From IMG/VR virus record IMGVR_UViG_3300008255_000101, positions 86,183 to 150,182 of that record: a DNA stretch of 64,000 bases. One strand, 5' to 3'. Source of the DNA: a virus. Below are positions 5,667-54,389 of this stretch, piece after piece. Within the stretch, counting starts at the first letter, position 1. Each line of letters starts with the position of its first letter. Below the pieces are notes generated by a model. It was not told the origin of the DNA. It saw only the letters and a program-made list of their open reading frames with translations, and searched no databases. The translations under genes were made by a program, and so were the position numbers.

Positions 5667-6935
5667 CTATGCCAAGGCACTAATTTGTTCTTTGGCAGCT
5701 TTACGCACGGACCAATGGGACTTAACATGTACCCGGATGGCTTCCAGGAGAGTGGGGTCCTTGAATGTCTTGACGTAGGCCACTTTGGACTTGTAGTCGA
5801 TATCAGACCACTTCTTACCTCCCACTACCAAGTCATTGACGTCGGAGACAGCCACTGCAGCAGGAGTGGGATCCTTGGGTGCCTGTTGTTTGGCCTTGAG
5901 ACGGGCGGTTGCTTCATTCTTCTTCAATTGGAAGTCGTCAATCCTCTTGCGAGGAGTTTGCTCCTTCTCGTTTATGCCGGAAGAATGGGTCTTCTGCAAG
6001 ATTGGAGCGTCTTGCGCCTGCCTGGTGGTACTGTCCAGGTTAGTGAGACTCTGGTCTTTCGAAGGGGGAGCGATAGCGGATGACTCCATGGTCTTTGACG
6101 AGGGCCCTACGGCAGGCTTACCCATACCCTCACCTTCGTCCACCACCGTGGTCACGGCTTTTGCTTCAAGGGTGGAACCCTGGGTACCTAGGCCGGCATT
6201 TTTGGAAATCAATTTATCGAAACCTTCCTCACTCTTGGGAGAAGAAGCGTCCAACTCAATGGTCATCTTGGCGGGAACCATCCTACGCATAGGGATAGCT
6301 TCGCCGTCCACGGGGGGAGGATTCTCCCCTCTGTTCTCGATGAGGGCCTGTTGCTTGGCGGATACAGCCCGGGCACCCATCTTAATGGCACCCTCATTAT
6401 TGGAGCTCATGGCCACTGCTTCGCGGTTACCCTTCAAAGGTGCCACGATTTCCATATCTTCACCCATGATGACACCAAGCTTCTGGCGTTCCGTGGATAC
6501 AGAGGTGGAGTGGTTCTGGCGGGATCCGGCATCGTCGAAGGCGGTCTTGCGTACGGTGTTGCCCTCAACCGTCTCCACGGGCATTCCCCGTTTGGCGGAG
6601 GACCCCTCGACCATGACGAGATGGCCGTTGTTATTACTGGAGGCAACCGAAGTTGGGGCCACGTTTTCAAACATTTCCTGTGCGGCAGGAGCCTGCGTAG
6701 GAGAGCTGGTCTCGTACATAGGTACTTCTTCCGTTTCCCCCACAACTCGTAACCACCCTTCTCGGATAGCTGCCTTAAGGGATACAGAGGCATCACGAAT
6801 GCCATTGTACTCTACATTGAACCCGTCGTAGAAAAGAACCTCTCCCACTTTTGTGGAAAGGCCCATTGACAAAGCGGGGTTATTGATGAGGGACAGAGTG
6901 AACGCCTCGGTCACCAGGTATTTCTGCATGGACAT
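5667..6935 (-). CDS. Hypothetical (likely virion) protein
   Basis: 422-aa ORF with an AGGAG RBS and a late-promoter-like motif upstream. Confidence 0.7.
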   Translation of the reverse strand: MSMQKYLVTEAFTLSLINNPALSMGLSTKVGEVLFYDGFNVEYNGIRDASVSLKAAIREGWLRVVGETEEVPMYETSSPTQAPAAQEMFENVAPTSVASSNNNGHLVMVEGSSAKRGMPVETVEGNTVRKTAFDDAGSRQNHSTSVSTERQKLGVIMGEDMEIVAPLKGNREAVAMSSNNEGAIKMGARAVSAKQQALIENRGENPPPVDGEAIPMRRMVPAKMTIELDASSPKSEEGFDKLISKNAGLGTQGSTLEAKAVTTVVDEGEGMGKPAVGPSSKTMESSAIAPPSKDQSLTNLDSTTRQAQDAPILQKTHSSGINEKEQTPRKRIDDFQLKKNEATARLKAKQQAPKDPTPAAVAVSDVNDLVVGGKKWSDIDYKSKVAYVKTFKDPTLLEAIRVHVKSHWSVRKAAKEQISALA

Positions 6936-17548: not shown

Positions 17549-18427
17549 TTACCGAGCAATCTTAATGCGAGTGATCGCCTTAGGATTGAATGCTCCAATA
17601 CCCAGCATTTCAAAGATGCTGAAGCCGATGCGGCGAGCTTTAGGATCATCCGCGCTCAGAACGGTAAGTTCCGTACGAACGGGGATACGTCCCAAGAACT
17701 CAGGCTCTGCACAGACATACACGTAGCCAGGTTCCACGATACGGGAGATCATGATCTGGGCACCGTGCAAGGTAGCCATAAGGCCAGTCTTGAGCAGGGT
17801 AGCTTGAGTTTCGATGTCCAAAACATCACGTCCCCACTTACGCAGGTCAGCAAAGTCACGGGCATTCATGAACACGCGAGCAACGCGGTTGTCCCACTGT
17901 TCGATTTCAGCGAAAGCATCGATGAAAGCGGCAGGAGTGACAGGAGCGTTCACGTTCACCTGAGGGTTAGGATTGGTATCGGTATCGAAACCATTCACAT
18001 TCAGCTGATCCAAGACTTCGAAGACGCGAGAGTCTTCAGCAGCCTGAATCTGAGCCTTACCCAGGTTCTGAGCACGTTCGATCAGGTCGAAACGACGTTC
18101 CTTGATCTGAGACAAAGGAATCTCAGGATTGGAAGCCAGTTCGAAGAGAGGGAAGATCACACGAGTACCGCGAGCAGTACCGAGGATGTTTTCACCTTCT
18201 TCAGACACGGCATAGGCACGTACGTCCGGATCCTTGTCGTAGATGGGCAATGCGCCGTCAGGCAACTGTTCCACTTCGAAAGTCTTACGACCAACGGAGG
18301 AATAGTCGCGACGTTCGCGGAGGGGCTGCTGCATGGAAGCAGCAAGCTTTTGGCGGCCTTCGATCGTTCCAATGTATTGGGCGATCACTTGGCTCTTTTG
18401 TTCGTTGGAAAGTTTAGACATACTCAT
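17549..18427 (-). CDS. Major capsid protein (HK97 fold)
   Basis: 292 aa from a GGAGGA-preceded ATG; FELASNPEIPLSQIKERRFDLIERAQ...AAED; strongly biased codons; follows protease, scaffold and decoration genes. Confidence 0.88.
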   Translation of the reverse strand: MSMSKLSNEQKSQVIAQYIGTIEGRQKLAASMQQPLRERRDYSSVGRKTFEVEQLPDGALPIYDKDPDVRAYAVSEEGENILGTARGTRVIFPLFELASNPEIPLSQIKERRFDLIERAQNLGKAQIQAAEDSRVFEVLDQLNVNGFDTDTNPNPQVNVNAPVTPAAFIDAFAEIEQWDNRVARVFMNARDFADLRKWGRDVLDIETQATLLKTGLMATLHGAQIMISRIVEPGYVYVCAEPEFLGRIPVRTELTVLSADDPKARRIGFSIFEMLGIGAFNPKAITRIKIAR

Positions 18428-18440
18428 TTTTCTGTCCTCC

Positions 18441-19013
18441 TTAAACGCGCAGCTGAACAACCATGACGGGGCTGCTGGCGGTTGGGGGTTCAATGATTAC
18501 GCCTACGATCGTTGCACCAGATGCAGCGACACCACCAGTCAAGCCAGCAGCGATGGTCAGAAGACCATTAGCGGAAGCATAGACGGGGAGACCGGCAGCG
18601 GTGGAATAATCGAGCGCGGTTCCGGCAGTGTCAGCAGTCTCGTAAACGGGAACTTCGACAACGGAGCCAGTGCCGTGCAGATAGGTGATGGAGCCAGAAG
18701 CCACGGATGAGGTGGATTCGTAAGCTTCGCCAGCAGCATTGCGAACAGCGATACCGACGATACCTACTTGAACGCCTGTAGCAGCGTCGTTAGCAGGACC
18801 GACAGTAGCGGCATCTACGATGCGAACTACGGAGCCAGCCAGAATACCGTCAGGAGTGGCGGTGTTCAGAGTGGTGTTGGCCAGAGCTTGAGTTCCAGAG
18901 CGATTGTCCACGGTAAGCCCTTCATCACTGATTGCACAGTAAGAGTTCAGGGTACCACGGTACAGAGGCTGGAGTTCAAGCGCAGGAGCAATTTTATTGC
19001 TTTGTCCACGCAT
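18441..19013 (-). CDS. Capsid decoration/cement protein
   Basis: A/G/T/V-rich beta protein with VYASANGLLT, located between scaffold and capsid genes. Confidence 0.7.
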   Translation of the reverse strand: MRGQSNKIAPALELQPLYRGTLNSYCAISDEGLTVDNRSGTQALANTTLNTATPDGILAGSVVRIVDAATVGPANDAATGVQVGIVGIAVRNAAGEAYESTSSVASGSITYLHGTGSVVEVPVYETADTAGTALDYSTAAGLPVYASANGLLTIAAGLTGGVAASGATIVGVIIEPPTASSPVMVVQLRV

Positions 19014-47543: not shown

Positions 47544-48000
47544 TATTTCTTTCCCGCCACTTTCTTGGGAGTAGTTTTTTCTTGGGAGCGGCCACCTTGG
47601 GTACAAGGTCATAATCCGAGCTACCCTTGAAGGCGTCCTTAATAAAGGCGTCATCCCACTTTTCAAACATAGGAACGTCCCCTTCAGCTACAGGGTGGAA
47701 CTCCGCGAATAGTTCGGGAAAGGCCACCCCTTTTTTACCCTGGGGACTAACCAAGTCGGGGCAATATATCAGGATCACGTATTTAAAGGATTCGGAATTA
47801 AGCTTTCTCCAGGTGAAATGCTTTTTCCTACCTTCCAGGATTTCTTTACCCTTCGTGGACCCCCAATCGTATATCTCCAGAATCTTACCTAGGCGTCCGT
47901 GCAGCCCAATATTGAATTCGTCGCCCTTGTTACGGGACAGAAAGTCCTGACCAGCCATAGTGATGAAAACCAAGTCACCTTGCTTAAATTTCTCAGCCAT
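47533..48000 (-). CDS. Hypothetical protein (SH3-like N-terminus)
   Basis: FKQGDLVFI...GKILEI; operon packing. Confidence 0.6.
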   Translation of the reverse strand: MAEKFKQGDLVFITMAGQDFLSRNKGDEFNIGLHGRLGKILEIYDWGSTKGKEILEGRKKHFTWRKLNSESFKYVILIYCPDLVSPQGKKGVAFPELFAEFHPVAEGDVPMFEKWDDAFIKDAFKGSSDYDLVPKVAAPKKKLLPRKWRERNNVS

Positions 48001-50725: not shown

Positions 50726-51736
50726 TTAACCTTCACGTTCTTTTCTCCCACGCTCTATGTCCGCCCTTATGAGTAGACTGGTTATACCCACGGCCCAGAT
50801 GAACATCGCCCTGGCCTGCTTCTCATGGGTGGCCATCACCTTGGCGAAAGCGTTCAGGCACCTGTTTATATCAGACTCACTGTGGCTACCAGCATGCTCC
50901 AGGTACCAACTTGTGCGACTAGGCATAGAGACATGGAGGGTATCCATGAACTTCACTTTCAGAAAGTCCGTGCACATGGCCACCATGACCTCAGCCAAAA
51001 CCTTAGCCCCCAGGGCATTGGACTGATTCACGAAACCGGAGAATTTAGCCAGGGCCTTGCATGTATCCCCACGCAGGATGTAAGTGAAAAGCTGGGGGGC
51101 GGTCTCGTGGGCTTTGGTGACCGTATCGGCATTATCCATGGGGTCGATCGACAAGAATGGGCTAAGCTTTGACAATTCCTCGGCTTTCTTTATCTTCATG
51201 CCGGCCTTCATCATTAGGGGCTGGTACGTAGTGCAGGAAGAATCCCCTGTGAAAAACATTTTGGTGCGAGACATGATGGTGGACGAAATATCCCTTCTGT
51301 CCCTGCACGTAAGAATGACCAAGACCCCGTCTGGGTCTTCTTCCAAAACTTTAAGGAGGCTCGCTTCAGCAGAGGGGGTGAGTTTCTCAGCTCGCTTAAT
51401 CAAAAGGCACCTTCTGTCGGATACCGTAGAAAAGTCTGTCAAAAAGTCCAGAGCTTCCCGTACAGTCCCCACTAGTAGGTTACCTGCCTCGGACAACTCC
51501 ATGGAGAACAGATCGGGGTGTTCGGATCCAAAAACCCTGCAGGATGGGCACGGGCACGAGGGGTCGTGGGTGCCGGTACACAAAAAGTACCGGGCTAACA
51601 GATCCGCAGTGTTCCACCTGTTATGATCGGAGGTCCCGTGCAATAGGAAAACACCTCCAGGAAGTCCTGAGCCCCTTATGTAGGTGCTCAACTGCTCTTC
51701 TGTTCGATTCGGTAGGGTCACCTGATTAAACGGCAT
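50726..51736 (-). CDS. DNA polymerase III delta-prime (HolB)-like subunit
   Basis: FLLHG, C...CPCPSC...HPDL, AEKLTPSAEASLLKVLEE, TIMSR. Confidence 0.8.
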   Translation of the reverse strand: MPFNQVTLPNRTEEQLSTYIRGSGLPGGVFLLHGTSDHNRWNTADLLARYFLCTGTHDPSCPCPSCRVFGSEHPDLFSMELSEAGNLLVGTVREALDFLTDFSTVSDRRCLLIKRAEKLTPSAEASLLKVLEEDPDGVLVILTCRDRRDISSTIMSRTKMFFTGDSSCTTYQPLMMKAGMKIKKAEELSKLSPFLSIDPMDNADTVTKAHETAPQLFTYILRGDTCKALAKFSGFVNQSNALGAKVLAEVMVAMCTDFLKVKFMDTLHVSMPSRTSWYLEHAGSHSESDINRCLNAFAKVMATHEKQARAMFIWAVGITSLLIRADIERGRKEREG

Positions 51737-51922
51737 TTTTTTCCTTAAGCACTAGAGTAAAACGACCATGTCCTCGTAATAGGACATAAGCCTTCTCAAA
51801 TATTCATCGGCTGCGGACTTCTTTCAGGTTCACTGCATGGCAGCCAAATCCAGGTGAACCGTTACCGGAGGTCTATGTTAACACGGGGTCTAGTCCACTA
51901 CCCCGAAGACCGCCTAAAAATA

Positions 51923-51950
51923 CTCTACCTATAGCAACTGTATCTTCTAG
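51923..51950. repeat. 28-bp direct repeat, copy 1
   Basis: CTCTACCTATAGCAACTGTATCTTCTAG. Confidence 0.9.
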
Positions 51951-51974
51951 ATATGCTTGTTCAAATAATGATTT

Positions 51975-52560
51975 TTTGGTTTTTTCGCCAAATTCGGCCA
52001 CCTCTAGCCACATTGACTTTACCCACCGCTCTCTAGCACTTGCCAGGAATCCAGGGCGTTCCACGTTCACGCTCAGTAACGTACGTGCTCCTTTTCCGAA
52101 AAAGGAGTGAAAATCTCGAACCGTTGTAGTAAGACTCCGCAGCACCCCGGCATTCACCCTGCTTACGCGAGGTAGGTGGTGGGAGTCCGACCCACTGCCG
52201 CCGTTGTGTTTAAAGGAAGGAACTGCGTGTTTCACGCCAATTAAGGCATTTTTCCTACATACGCTCTTTCGAGAGGGGCTATCAAGACATACCCGAACCA
52301 TGTCCGTTCGGGTCAAAGTCGACGGCCTGGTTGAAACGACCCCGGTCACCTTCAAGGGCCAAACCCATTCATTGCGGCCACATAAGTAGCTCCACGCCGA
52401 GGAATCTTGCCTGTCAGAACACGAAGCACAGGCGGAGTGAGGACGCATCCCCAAGAGGTTTCCCTCCCTTAGCTCGCCTTTCCAGTGTCCAGTTTGAGTG
52501 GTCATTTCGTCCTTTTTAGACCCCACCGGGGTCATACACCATGAATAGGTGTTCTCCAAT
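51975..52560 (-). ncRNA. Candidate large structured non-coding RNA (~580 nt)
   Basis: At least 9 hairpins plus long-range helices; several GNRA loops read on the minus strand. Boundaries and strand are approximate. Confidence 0.6.
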
Positions 52561-52594
52561 ATATGAAGGCACCCTTCGTTTTTAAACAAAAAAT

Positions 52595-52984
52595 TTACCG
52601 ATAGGCGGCCATACGCTCCAGATTTACCTTCCAGCGCTCCACCACAGGTGCCAATTCCTCGGCTCCTTTAAGAATGTCAGGGTTAGGGAAATCCTTCTGT
52701 TTCAGCACGATAACCTGGTCTAATCCCTCGATTGTAGCCTTTAGTGCCAGGTTTTCAGGATTTAGGACCTCAGTACTCTTGATCAGTACTAGGGGGAATA
52801 ACCCCTCCTTCTCTATACTTCCCAGGGTACCCAGCTGCTCTGCTACGATATCAGGAGTATTAAAAAGGGAGTACGAAACCATGTGTAGCCTCCTGTCCCT
52901 TAGGTAGATGGTTCTAAGGAAGTCAGTGAACATATTCACTGATAGGACGTCTTTCCAGATAATTCCGATTCTTTTAATAGGCAT
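52595..52984 (-). CDS. Hypothetical protein
   Basis: 129 aa with an AGAGGGG RBS and protein-like composition. Confidence 0.7.
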   Translation of the reverse strand: MPIKRIGIIWKDVLSVNMFTDFLRTIYLRDRRLHMVSYSLFNTPDIVAEQLGTLGSIEKEGLFPLVLIKSTEVLNPENLALKATIEGLDQVIVLKQKDFPNPDILKGAEELAPVVERWKVNLERMAAYR

Positions 52985-53087
52985 AAGCCCCTCTTTGGTT
53001 ACATCCCCTTAAGATAGGGATCTTTAAGAAAAAATGGTAGAGGGGGTCGATCGAACTCATTAAATGATTTCTGTTTCGTCGTTCTCC

Positions 53088-53115
53088 CTCTACCTATAGC
53101 AACTATATCTTCTAG
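53088..53115. repeat. 28-bp direct repeat, copy 2
   Basis: CTCTACCTATAGCAACTATATCTTCTAG (1 mismatch to copy 1). Confidence 0.9.
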
Positions 53116-53320
53116 TAGATATCCGTGAAACGGATATCACTTACTTACGTAAGTAATATCCTTGTATAAATACATAATGAATTAATCCTAAAATGGGGGA
53201 GTCCGCAAGTGAAAGAGATATTTCCCCCTACAGCTGGAAAGTTAGCTTTTAGTGAGGGATAGGATCCTAGGGTCAGTTGAGATTTCCTGGATCAATCCCT
53301 AATACCGTCGAAGTTTCTAG

Positions 53321-53349
53321 TTAAAAATCTGATACAGATAACGTATAGT
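53321..53349 (+). promoter_or_regulatory. Sigma70-like promoter for the rightward replication operon
   Basis: TTAAAA-N17-TATAGT; same architecture at 56844-56872 (+), 46786-46814 (-) and 24081-24109 (-). Confidence 0.6.
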
Positions 53350-53393
53350 ACCTCAGGATGTTATTGGTCATCCTGGATTTTAAAGGAAAACTG

Positions 53394-53753
53394 ATGCCAC
53401 AGGGTAAAGATAACGAAGGAACTGGTTTTCGCGCTGTAAGCGGGCTGGTTCAAACATTGAAAGTAGCAGAGATGGATGCAAGCATAGCTTCCAACCTGGA
53501 ACGTGCCAAGGATGCTCTGAAAGATCTGGCTAATGTGGTTACCACTCAATGTGCCCTCCTGATGGAGATCACCCAGAAGGGTGCTGACGCTAGCACTATA
53601 GCTTCTGTACATACCCAGTACAACAAGTGCTCGCAGATGTACCATTCGAAATTAAGCAAGTTTGTGGATGTCAGCCTGAGACAAGCTGAAACCATGCTGG
53701 ACGATAAAGAAAGAACGGCAAAGCTCCTGAAAGAGCTGGACCCCTCACGATAA
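53394..53753 (+). CDS. Hypothetical helical protein
   Basis: AAAGGA RBS; first gene of the rightward operon. Confidence 0.65.
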   Translation: MPQGKDNEGTGFRAVSGLVQTLKVAEMDASIASNLERAKDALKDLANVVTTQCALLMEITQKGADASTIASVHTQYNKCSQMYHSKLSKFVDVSLRQAETMLDDKERTAKLLKELDPSR

Positions 53754-53765
53754 TACACACCTGGA

Positions 53766-54389
53766 GTGATAACAAAGATGAGTCCTAACAGACCTACCTA
53801 CAAAGATGACCGTATCCAGAGGTCCCTCTTCAGAAGTGAAGAGCACTACGTTAAAGCGGAGAAGATGCTTGACGGGGTCCTGACCGGTAAGATAGGGGAC
53901 GCCCCCATGGGAGACAACGGGGAAATTGCTTTCTCAACGGTCCTCGATATTATGGGGGACGAGAATAAAGCACTGGACTACATGGACTACGAACACCTGG
54001 TGGAACTCTACCTCAGGCACAGCCCCCTGTTTTTCAACCTGGCCGGTGACGATATTGTGTCCCTGAGGCCTGCCAATTTTGAGAAACCCGTAGTACCGCC
54101 GGACACCCTGTACTTTGGGACAGTTCGTGGCGTGGCTCAGAGAGCCCTGGAGCAAGGCCTCGAGAGCAGGAAGCACCCCCACGTTGTACTGACATCGGAT
54201 ATTACAGCAGCCGTGAGACGTTCCCACCAGTTCAGTATGAGCACCAAGGACGAGGCAGTCCTGCTCACTGTGGATGCGGGACGTGCTTACAAAGACGGTA
54301 AAGAATTTTTGGTGGGAAATAGGAGTGGGTTGTACATGGCAACCCACATCAGTCGCAAGTACCTAACCTACGACGATTCTACCCACTAA
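53766..54389 (+). CDS. RNA 2'-phosphotransferase (Tpt1/KptA)-like protein, degenerate
   Basis: PPDTLYFGT...GLES.KHPHVVLT...LTVDA.RA..DG..F pattern of the Tpt1 C-lobe. Confidence 0.7.
   Translation: MITKMSPNRPTYKDDRIQRSLFRSEEHYVKAEKMLDGVLTGKIGDAPMGDNGEIAFSTVLDIMGDENKALDYMDYEHLVELYLRHSPLFFNLAGDDIVSLRPANFEKPVVPPDTLYFGTVRGVAQRALEQGLESRKHPHVVLTSDITAAVRRSHQFSMSTKDEAVLLTVDAGRAYKDGKEFLVGNRSGLYMATHISRKYLTYDDSTH

What the first reader, a model, noticed from the sequence alone, without database searches (positions are those of the whole stretch)
51975..52560. Candidate ~580-nt ornate non-coding RNA at the genome's strand-switch point
Seen: an 858-bp gap in an otherwise tightly packed genome is filled with hairpins at 52088-52107, 52225-52237, 52264-52275, 52291-52313, 52409-52433, 52455-52466, 52519-52533 and 52536-52552. 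Enclosing helices include GACTTT(52015)/AAAGTC(52315), CGGCA(52148)/TGCCG(52196) and GGACG(52441)/CGTCC(52508). On the minus strand several loops are GNRA (gagg-GAAA-cctc, ctc-GAAA-gag, gc-GUAA-gc). There is also a three-way junction with a T-arm-like GUGGG-UCGGACU-CCCAC. Some helices read better on the plus strand, so the strand is not certain. Known: phages carry large RNAs of this size class (ROOL, GOLLD). I could not match hallmark motifs of RNase P, tmRNA or group I/II introns. Inference: a large functional RNA, possibly a new class.
Basis: partly seen in the sequence, partly recalled or inferred. Interest (0 to 1): 0.8.

Follow-up and report, generated by a model that had tools for sequence, protein, structure and literature searches.

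The report
Conserved open frame with RNA-like evolution
The supposed gene-free gap in this huge uncultured phage holds a reading frame that stays free of stop codons in two distant relatives, yet its sequence evolves like a folded RNA and not like a protein, so it is probably a structured and translated transcript of unknown function, not a plain non-coding RNA.

Summary
The 858-nt gap (51737-52594) and the listed hairpins are real. An exhaustive HMMER search found two distant relatives, known only as proteins (48% and 33-39% identity). Both are open in the same frame across the whole core. A neutral simulation gives about 1% and 0.5% for that, so the frame is under selection and a purely non-coding RNA is unlikely.

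The frame does not behave like a protein gene. Codon use and amino-acid make-up match spurious ORFs. Mismatched residues are no more alike than random (0.13-0.17 positive, HolB 0.33-0.43). AlphaFold2 gives pLDDT 31.

Minimal-change back-translation of the relatives gives a consensus fold on the ORF-sense strand with z -3.6 to -5.6 and excess forced compensatory pairs; HolB controls mostly lie between +0.9 and -1.8. Hairpin 52292-52312 has three forced compensatory pairs.

There is no Rfam match. Single-sequence folding is only modestly stable (z about -2.3).

Best reading (0.4): a structured transcript whose frame is kept open. Rivals: an odd orphan gene (0.3), a pure ncRNA (0.12). Relatives' DNA could not be fetched, so this stays unsettled.

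The parts
51737..52594 (.). The 858-nt interval between the holB-like gene and the 129-aa ORF (the 'gap' of the finding).
51873..52589 (-). Stop-free frame of 238 codons counted from TTG. The gene caller's version (P0002) starts at ATG 52535 and is 220 aa. The start I favour is ATG 52505, giving 210 codons.
   Evidence: The other five frames hold 7-22 stops.
51930..52454 (-). Conserved core (codons 46-220). It aligns in one frame with P0010 (48% identity) and P0011 (33-39%).
52017..52112 (-). Most conserved block (codons 160-191). It contains the runs read as RTLLSVNVE and GFLASARER, which are identical or nearly so in all three sequences. It folds into a 10-bp bulged hairpin (52062-52087) and part of a 14-pair imperfect helix, 52021-52057 (one arm 17 nt, with unpaired bases).
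52292..52312 (-). 7-bp hairpin (CCCGAAC / GTTCGGG). P0011 has three forced compensatory pairs and one wobble. P0010 has two C-to-U changes that keep G.U pairs on this strand only. One terminal pair is broken in P0011.
   Evidence: checked by hand against the codons
52088..52107 (-). 8-bp hairpin. The relatives' change of SFFGKG to LAFGSR is compatible with UU/AA becoming GC/GY, but only if their Ser codon is AGY.
   Evidence: the codon reasoning is my own
52148..52200 (-). Three-way junction: CGGCA/TGCCG closing the GTGGG..CCCAC and CACCT..GGGTG hairpins. Nearly invariant in the relatives, so it says little about pairing.
52503..52517 (-). AAGGA, a 4-nt spacer, then ATG (codon 29). The ribosome-binding site resembles holB's (AAGGA, 5-nt spacer, ATG). 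P0011's first residue aligns with this Met: both lie 10 residues before the ELR motif.
52519..52533 (-). 6-bp GC-rich hairpin just upstream of the ribosome-binding site.
52558..52586 (-). Sigma-70-like promoter match (TTTAAA, 17 nt, TATATT; 9 of 12) at the upstream edge of the gap.
   Evidence: a consensus match only
51923..51950 (-). Copy A of a sharply bounded 28-nt direct repeat. It lies inside the 3' end of the frame and 187 nt upstream of the holB start. Its translation LEDTVAI is kept as LEFTVAI in P0010.
53088..53115 (-). Copy B of the 28-nt repeat (one mismatch), 104 nt upstream of the 129-aa ORF. These are the only two copies in the 150-kb contig.
51766..51789 (-). Terminator-like hairpin (9 pairs, then TCGTTTTACT) between the end of the frame and the holB ribosome-binding site.

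Best explanation
The gap holds one conserved transcription unit on the minus strand:
- a promoter-like site at 52586-52558
- a GC hairpin
- AAGGA plus ATG at 52505
- about 210 stop-free codons ending at 51873

Two selective forces appear to act on it together. (1) The frame is kept open, so ribosomes probably translate it. (2) The sequence is held by an RNA secondary structure on the same strand, not by what a folded protein needs. Half of the positions are frozen. The other half change with no regard to amino-acid similarity, but tend to keep base pairs.

I therefore read it as a structured, translated RNA, that is, a dual-constraint element. The RNA fold is the conserved functional part. The peptide is either incidental or works through a few short frozen motifs. 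Because it sits inside the replication module, just upstream of the clamp-loader operon and about 400 nt from the divergence point, a role in replication-module expression or priming is the most natural guess.

Shown: the conserved open frame, the non-protein-like evolution and the absence of any known family. Inferred from indirect tests: the conserved fold. Guessed: translation itself and the function.
For: Frame under selection:
- One frame has no stops across the ORF span 51873-52589; the other five frames carry 7-22 stops over the 858-nt gap.
- P0010 (E 6.5e-31) and P0011 (E 1e-10) are open in the same frame over the whole core, and every conserved block is in register.
- Neutral simulations that reach the same identities give 4.8-6 stops and P(no stop) of 0-1% and 0.5-1%.
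- The start position and ribosome-binding site are plausible and are shared with P0011.

Not protein-like:
- Markov coding score -0.056 bits/nt, against 0.084 +/- 0.024 (minimum 0.014) for 79 genes.
- Codon-position composition is flat.
- Codon log-odds -0.066, against 0.256 +/- 0.10 for genes and -0.049 +/- 0.13 for shadow ORFs.
- Amino-acid make-up of all three members fits random translation (0.07-0.12, against -0.035 +/- 0.04 for genes).
- BLASTP identities/positives are 48/54 and 46/54, against 39/60 for HolB.
- The positive fraction among mismatches is 0.13-0.17, against 0.33-0.43 for HolB and 0.21-0.23 for the neutral model.
- AlphaFold2 gives pLDDT 31 and the ESM Atlas model 0.27.
- No hit in Pfam or PHROGs, and only one weak, spurious-looking PDB hit (melanophilin, E 8e-4).

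RNA fold, tested on three-row alignments with the relatives back-translated by the closest codon:
- Consensus energy z is -3.8 to -5.6 on the sense strand with column shuffles and -3.6 with codon shuffles.
- The ratio of consensus to single-sequence energy has z +2.9.
- Forced compensatory pairs have z +2.1 to +4.4.
- HolB controls at equal divergence give energy z +0.9 to -1.8.
- Hairpin 52292-52312 carries three forced compensatory pairs plus sense-strand-only G.U changes.

Conservation is about equal to that of HolB on what is evidently the same 12,965-bp contig.
Against: - The fold tests use relatives known only as proteins. Silent positions were set to our own bases, which assumes nucleotide-level conservation. 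With random codons the signal is noisy (sense energy z -0.1, -5.1, -1.9).
- One HolB control with closer relatives reached z -3.5 on the antisense strand.
- The antisense strand of the candidate also scores (z -1.4 to -5.1).
- Enumerating all stems gave no single helix above the permutation maximum.
- Single-sequence stability is modest, and local windows are ordinary.
- Only three sequences exist.
- I know of no precedent for a 200-codon frame kept open without protein-like constraint.
- An ordinary orphan protein with an invariant core and saturated surface would explain part of the substitution pattern.
- There is no transcript or peptide evidence.
Confidence: 0.4

Rival explanations
1. This is an ordinary but fast-evolving orphan protein gene (about 210 aa, basic) with foreign or unadapted codon use. 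The first reader simply missed the ORF, and the RNA-fold signals are artefacts of the back-translation method.
For: - The stop-free frame is conserved in three lineages, and all length differences between conserved blocks are multiples of three.
- The gene caller predicted it (P0002).
- There is a ribosome-binding site plus ATG at 52505 and a promoter-like site upstream.
- Conserved motifs such as RTLLSVNVE and GFLASARER could be a functional core.
- Phage orphans often lack family hits and confident folds.
- A few other likely genes of the contig, such as the integron cassettes, also have poor codon scores.
Against: - The substitution pattern is indistinguishable from random at mismatched positions. 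With HolB-like behaviour, 12 positives among 90 mismatches is about 4 sd too few.
- Trp is kept in only 2 of 10 cells and Tyr in 0 of 4.
- Composition is random-like in all three diverged members.
- Codon score is 3 to 6 sd below the genes.
- pLDDT is 31 with the family alignment.
- Consensus-fold and compensatory-pair signals are absent from the HolB controls treated in the same way.
Confidence: 0.3
2. This is a free-standing large non-coding RNA of a new class. The open frame would then be a coincidence, made visible because protein databases only hold relatives in which an ORF could be called.
For: - All the non-protein-like features listed above.
- The consensus-fold and compensatory signals favour the minus strand.
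- There are promoter-like and terminator-like sites at the two ends.
- The HolB-bearing contigs of P0004 and P0007 show no detectable ORF homologue. That could mean broken frames there, or merely that those contigs are short.
Against:
- The conserved blocks never change frame.
- Only about five related contigs are known, so detection bias cannot supply a factor of 100 or more.
- Rfam has no match (neutral for a new class).
- Local folding z-scores are ordinary.
Confidence: 0.12
3. This is a DNA-level element inside an open frame, for example a replication origin or regulatory region embedded in a gene, as lambda ori lies inside gene O. Nucleotide constraint would then come from protein-binding sites and unwinding elements, not from RNA.
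For: - It lies in the replication module near the strand-switch point and the local cumulative GC-skew minimum.
- Conservation runs at the nucleotide-block level.
- A sharply bounded 28-nt repeat has one copy inside the frame.
- Both strands score in the consensus-fold test in some runs.
Against: - There are no iterons, tandem repeats or AT-rich unwinding tract inside 51951-52594.
- Compensatory and G.U-type changes favour an RNA on one strand.
- The palindrome-rich, AT-rich block that looks like an origin lies next door at 52985-53357.
Confidence: 0.08

Closest known systems
ROOL, GOLLD and OLE: large ornate bacterial and phage RNAs (Rfam families; structures in PMC12286853)
   Same: The size class is similar (about 500-650 nt) and the element is phage-borne. 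The helices that can be drawn are many and short.
   Different: There is no Rfam match, even at E up to 10. Those RNAs are not known to carry a conserved 200-codon frame (my own knowledge). No tRNA neighbourhood was found in the window. Ornate tertiary architecture is not shown here.
Dual-function RNAs that are both structured regulators and mRNAs (SgrS/SgrT, RNAIII/hld, SR1/SR1P; named from my own knowledge)
   Same: One transcript is under both RNA-structure and reading-frame constraint.
   Different: Their ORFs have 26-45 codons and occupy a small part of the RNA. Here about 200 codons span the whole fold, and the peptide shows no protein-like constraint.
Spurious conserved ORFs inside structural RNA genes, such as 'proteins' called within rRNA (from my own knowledge)
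   Same: The translations have random-like composition, conservation in blocks and no conservative substitutions.
   Different: Those ORFs survive only because nucleotide identity is very high. Here nucleotide identity is at most 75% and 65%, and the frame is still open.
Lambda ori inside gene O, and the ColE1 RNA II preprimer (from my own knowledge)
   Same: A replication-module element where nucleotide-level function overlaps a coding frame (lambda ori), or a structured transcript of about 550 nt acting at an origin (RNA II).
   Different: No iterons are present here. There is no similarity to either and no evidence of origin activity.
Hypothetical orphan phage proteins
   Same: It is called by a gene finder, has no family, and has a few homologues in related phages.
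   Different: Codon use, composition and substitution pattern are those of non-genic ORFs.

Membership tests
Any Rfam family (ROOL, GOLLD, OLE, HEARO, raiA, RNase P, tmRNA, group I/II introns, 6S, SRP and the rest) | The covariance-model score reaches the family's gathering threshold. | tested here: not met
   There are 0 matches at gathering score over the whole window. With E up to 10 over 51600-53400 there are only chance-level hits of at most 20 bits to eukaryotic snoRNA and miRNA models. ARAGORN finds no tRNA or tmRNA.
Group I / group II intron | It interrupts a host gene, so exons flank it. | tested here: not met
   HolB starts at its conserved Met-Pro (M1 and P2 are invariant in 5 homologues). 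The upstream 129-aa ORF ends with its own stop. No intron model matched.
Protein-coding gene | A stop-free frame is conserved in diverged relatives and indels preserve the frame. | tested here: met
   Neutral expectation is 4.8-6 stops, with P(0) at most 1%.
Protein-coding gene | Codon usage and three-base periodicity resemble the genome's other genes. | tested here: not met
   The score is -0.056 against 0.084 +/- 0.024. Position composition is flat. Codon log-odds are -0.066 against 0.256 +/- 0.10, equal to shadow ORFs.
Protein-coding gene | Substitutions are biased toward similar amino acids (purifying selection on the protein). | tested here: not met
   The positive fraction among mismatches is 0.13-0.17, against 0.33-0.43 for HolB and 0.21-0.23 for neutral nucleotide drift. 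BLASTP positives exceed identities by only 6-8 points.
Protein-coding gene | Synonymous sites evolve faster than non-synonymous ones (dN/dS below 1). | not testable with these tools
Structured non-coding RNA (generic) | The fold is significantly more stable than shuffled sequence. | tested here: inconclusive
   z is -2.2 to -2.5 for 51975-52560, within the range of the coding controls (+1.5 to -3.4). Local 200-nt windows are ordinary.
Structured non-coding RNA (generic) | Base pairs are kept by compensatory changes in homologues. | tested here: inconclusive
   Only indirect tests on back-translated relatives were possible. Consensus energy z is -3.6 to -5.6 and forced compensatory pairs z +2.1 to +4.4, with HolB controls mostly within about 2 sd of zero (energy z +0.9 to -1.8; compensatory-pair z -2.7 to +2.7). 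Hairpin 52292-52312 has three forced compensations. No single stem beat the permutations.
Structured non-coding RNA (generic) | There is no conserved reading frame. | tested here: not met
Structured non-coding RNA (generic) | A discrete stable transcript exists. | not testable with these tools

The most novel reading that the evidence does not exclude
This is a new class of large (about 500-650 nt) phage RNA, found so far only in a rare clade of huge phages next to the clamp-loader gene. Its conserved fold is the functional unit, while one reading frame through the whole fold is kept open. It would be an RNA that works as a structure and must also be translated, for example to protect or remodel it, possibly in control or priming of the replication module.
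Probability: 0.3. Interest if true: 0.75.

Novelty: new variant of a known kind. Interest (0 to 1): 0.45.

Why it matters
If the dual reading holds, this would be a bacterial-virus RNA in which a long reading frame and an RNA fold are selected together while the encoded peptide is nearly unconstrained. Neither gene finders nor ncRNA screens are built to recognise that combination: the first call it a hypothetical protein, and the second discard regions with ORFs.

It would also be a handle on replication-module regulation in a poorly known clade of huge phages. If it turns out to be a plain orphan gene, the lesson is narrower. A 'gap' seen by eye must be checked for ORFs, and the case is ordinary.

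Tried and rejected
Searches for relatives and known families:
- Rfam at gathering score and at E up to 10 found nothing. ARAGORN found nothing.
- blastn and tblastn against 50,697 phage records found no relative of the gap. The only tblastn hits were chance hits at E about 0.8.
- Relatives' DNA was sought with HolB, the 129-aa ORF and the ORF family in IMG/VR, JGI metagenomes and GTDB genomes. None was found.
- RecD2 relatives in IMG/VR are at most 36% identical. Their synteny differs (holB lies 8-16 kb away on the same strand), and none carries the element.
So the Logan contigs behind P0004-P0011 and any RNA reads could not be examined, and read laying was not usable.

Other ways to read the DNA:
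- Alternative genetic codes or a plus-strand gene are rejected, because every other frame mixes TAA, TAG and TGA stops.
- A frameshift fusion with the 129-aa ORF is rejected: no slippery site precedes its stop (read).
- Tandem repeats, iterons and paralogous copies in the 150-kb contig are absent.

Spurious hits:
- P0012 (1601 aa, E 2e-4) matches only because one weak 22%-identity match is repeated four times.
- The PDB hit to melanophilin (E 8e-4) is compositional and without conserved Cys ligands.
- The ESM Atlas gave no feature hit.

Tests that did not discriminate:
- Enumerating all stems of at least 5 bp: the top score equals the permutation mean. Only the count of stems scoring at least 3 is raised (49 against 26 +/- 6), and the two relatives are not independent.
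- Conservation by codon degeneracy class.
- The 28-nt repeat as a general promoter is rejected, because no further copy exists with up to 7 mismatches.

Full report
**Setting**

The window is the last 64 kb of a 150,182-bp virus record. Earlier notes of this scan describe it as a fragment of an uncultured huge phage. I did not test that.

The finding lies inside a long run of minus-strand genes:
- Downstream is a 336-aa clamp-loader-type protein (50726-51736; Pfam DNA_pol3_delta2, E 1.2e-20).
- Upstream is a 129-aa ORF (52595-52984) with no family and no homologue.
- The strand switch lies at 52985-53357. Beyond it come a Tpt1/KptA-like gene and a RecD2-type helicase on the plus strand.

**Checking the observation**

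Their thermodynamic weight is modest.
- 200-nt windows through 51900-52600 have z between -1.55 and +1.64 on both strands. That matches the neighbouring genes. The divergent intergenic block 52900-53300 reaches -2.5 to -5.6.
- The stated interval 51975-52560 gives z -2.46 (+) and -2.19 (-) against 80 dinucleotide shuffles. Eight coding control windows of equal length span +1.5 to -3.4.
- The full 858 nt gives -2.6 (-) and -3.2 (+).
- Rfam has no match at gathering score in the whole window. Around the gap there are only chance hits at E up to 10. There are no tRNA or tmRNA genes.

One minus-strand frame is stop-free for 238 codons (51873-52589). The other five frames contain 7, 9, 15, 19 and 22 stops in the 858 nt. 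From the base composition, 239 stop-free codons have a chance of about 4e-6 per frame.

A gene caller had predicted this ORF (P0002, 220 aa). The most plausible start is ATG 52505. It follows AAGGA after a 4-nt spacer, which resembles the holB site, and a GC hairpin and a promoter-like match lie upstream of it.

**Is it a gene?**

By the usual internal measures it is not.

| Measure | This ORF | Comparison |
|---|---|---|
| Three-periodic Markov score (bits/nt) | -0.056 | 79 long genes 0.084 +/- 0.024, minimum 0.014; four neighbours 0.041-0.066 |
| G at codon position 2 | 0.27 | 0.14-0.18 in genes |
| A at codon position 3 | 0.26 | mostly 0.15-0.17 in genes (0.23 in the 129-aa ORF) |
| Codon log-odds | -0.066 | genes 0.256 +/- 0.10; 176 antisense shadow ORFs -0.049 +/- 0.13 |
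| Random-translation minus proteome log-likelihood per residue | +0.07 | genes -0.035 +/- 0.04; shadow ORFs +0.10 +/- 0.07 |

Pfam and PHROGs give nothing, and a PDB profile search gives only one weak, spurious-looking hit. The ESM Atlas model of this sequence has pLDDT 0.27. AlphaFold2 with the family alignment gives 31.

**Relatives**

No DNA relative exists in the phage records, IMG/VR, JGI metagenomes or GTDB genomes.

An exhaustive HMMER search of 1.84 billion representatives found two proteins from Logan assemblies:
- P0010: 177 aa, E 6.5e-31, 48% identity over residues 46-220.
- P0011: 203 aa, E 1e-10, 33-39% identity.

P0010 occurs on a contig of 12,965 bp. That is the length of the contig carrying HolB homologue P0006, which is 45% identical to ours. 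So the element is about as conserved as the clamp loader beside it.

**Two signals that conflict**

First, the frame. Both relatives are open across the whole homologous core, and all conserved blocks lie in one register. P0011's first residue aligns with our Met29. I simulated neutral nucleotide drift of our core down to the observed identities. This produces 4.8-6 stops on average and leaves the frame open in only 0-1% and 0.5-1% of runs. With about five related contigs known, detection bias cannot explain this. The frame is under selection, which argues strongly against a purely non-coding RNA.

Second, the way the sequence changes.
- BLASTP identities/positives are 48/54 and 46/54, against 39/60 for two HolB homologues.
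- Among mismatched columns the fraction with a positive BLOSUM62 score is 0.13-0.17. HolB pairs give 0.33-0.43, and neutral nucleotide drift gives 0.21-0.23.
- Mismatches are still enriched for single-base differences: 52-53% against 35-37% for random pairings.
- Trp is kept in 2 of 10 cells and Tyr in 0 of 4.
- P0010 and P0011 themselves have random-translation composition (+0.116 each).

So positions are either frozen or free, and amino-acid similarity plays no part. That is how translated nucleic-acid elements look.

**Indirect test for a conserved RNA fold**

I back-translated the two relatives onto our codons, choosing the codon closest to ours. This gives upper bounds of 75% and 65% nucleotide identity. 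I then ran RNAalifold and compared the result with alignments whose columns, or whole codons, were shuffled within conservation classes, so that the pattern of conservation stays in place.

- On the ORF-sense strand the consensus energy has z -4.0, -5.0, -5.3, -5.0, -3.8 and -5.6 with column shuffles, and -3.6 with codon shuffles.
- The ratio of consensus to single-sequence energy is 0.55 against 0.45 +/- 0.04.
- I counted pairs where the relative's residues force a change on both sides and every allowed base still pairs. These number 22-24, against about 14 +/- 3-4 (z +2.1 to +4.4).
- The antisense strand scores lower on compensation (z 0.1 to 2.0) and varies in energy (z -1.4 to -5.1).
- HolB segments treated the same way, with relatives of equal divergence, give energy z from +0.9 to -1.8 and no consistent excess of compensation.

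Caveats:
- One HolB control with closer relatives reached z -3.5 on the antisense strand.
- With silent positions randomised the signal becomes noisy.
- In an enumeration of all stems, no single stem beat the permutations.

Individual helices show the pattern:
- Hairpin 52292-52312 (read here as T-R-T-D-M-V-R-V) becomes T-A-V-H-T-A-A-R in P0011. This forces C-G to G-C, G-C to C-G and A-U to G-C at three pairs, and C-G to U-G at a fourth.
- In P0010 the same hairpin has two C-to-U changes that keep G.U pairs on this strand only.
- Hairpin 52088-52107 changes SFFGKG to LAFGSR. This fits UU/AA becoming GC/GY only if the Ser codon is AGY.

**Interpretation**

No single ordinary category fits.
- A pure ncRNA fails on the frame.
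- A plain protein gene fails on codon use, composition, substitution pattern and, more weakly, on the fold signals.
- The reading that fits all results is a transcript of the minus strand under two constraints: an RNA fold and an open, probably translated, frame whose peptide is barely constrained.

I give this 0.4, a peculiar orphan gene 0.3, a pure ncRNA 0.12, and a DNA-level element inside a frame 0.08. The remainder is unassigned.

Function is a guess. Position suggests control of, or priming within, the replication module.

A sharply bounded 28-nt direct repeat has copy A inside the 3' end of the frame (51923-51950) and copy B upstream of the 129-aa ORF (53088-53115). There are only these two copies in 150 kb. 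Each precedes a minus-strand gene start. Copy A is conserved in P0010's translation. The repeat may be a shared operator or promoter element.

**Novelty and limits**

Nothing in Rfam, Pfam, PHROGs or the PDB matches. The family has three known members. The comparison with ROOL and GOLLD (PMC12286853) rests on size alone.

The decisive data are the relatives' nucleotide sequences.

Noticed in passing
window 52985-53357: The divergent intergenic block at the true strand-switch point is the strongest-folding stretch of the neighbourhood. 200-nt windows give z -2.5 to -5.6 on both strands. It holds perfect palindromes and an AT-rich tract, and the local cumulative GC-skew minimum lies here. It is a better origin or operator candidate than the finding itself.
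   Followed up: partly
window 51923-51950 and 53088-53115: A 28-nt direct repeat (27 of 28 identical, sharp borders) is present only twice in the 150-kb contig. Each copy lies 100-190 nt upstream of a minus-strand gene start. Together the copies bracket the 129-aa ORF and most of the conserved frame. It could be a shared operator or promoter element, or a recombination scar.
   Followed up: partly
window 52595-52984 (-): The 129-aa ORF has normal codon statistics (0.046 bits/nt) but no Pfam or PHROG family. It has no homologue other than itself in the 5.8-billion-protein word-index search, although the element next to it is conserved.
   Followed up: partly
window 53766-54389 (+): A Tpt1/KptA-type RNA 2'-phosphotransferase homologue (Pfam E 7.7e-7, PHROG E 5e-10) lies about 1.2 kb from the candidate RNA.
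   Followed up: no
window-wide; for example 5836-6831 (+) and 17549-18493 (-): The contig has 176 antisense shadow ORFs of 80 aa or more (up to about 330 aa) that overlap real genes. Long ORFs alone are therefore weak evidence for genes in this genome.
   Followed up: partly
L001, L002, L024, L025 (IMG/VR relatives): The nearest IMG/VR relatives found through the RecD2 helicase are only 34-36% identical. They place their holB-like gene 8-16 kb away on the same strand, so the divergent arrangement seen here is not conserved. The clade of this phage is essentially absent from IMG/VR and the JGI metagenomes.
   Followed up: partly
window 47627-47950 (+) and genome positions before the window (integron cassettes): A few other ORFs have codon or composition scores as poor as the candidate's. 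One is probably spurious (47627-47950). Others lie in the integron-cassette array noted by an earlier agent, which fits a foreign origin.
   Followed up: no
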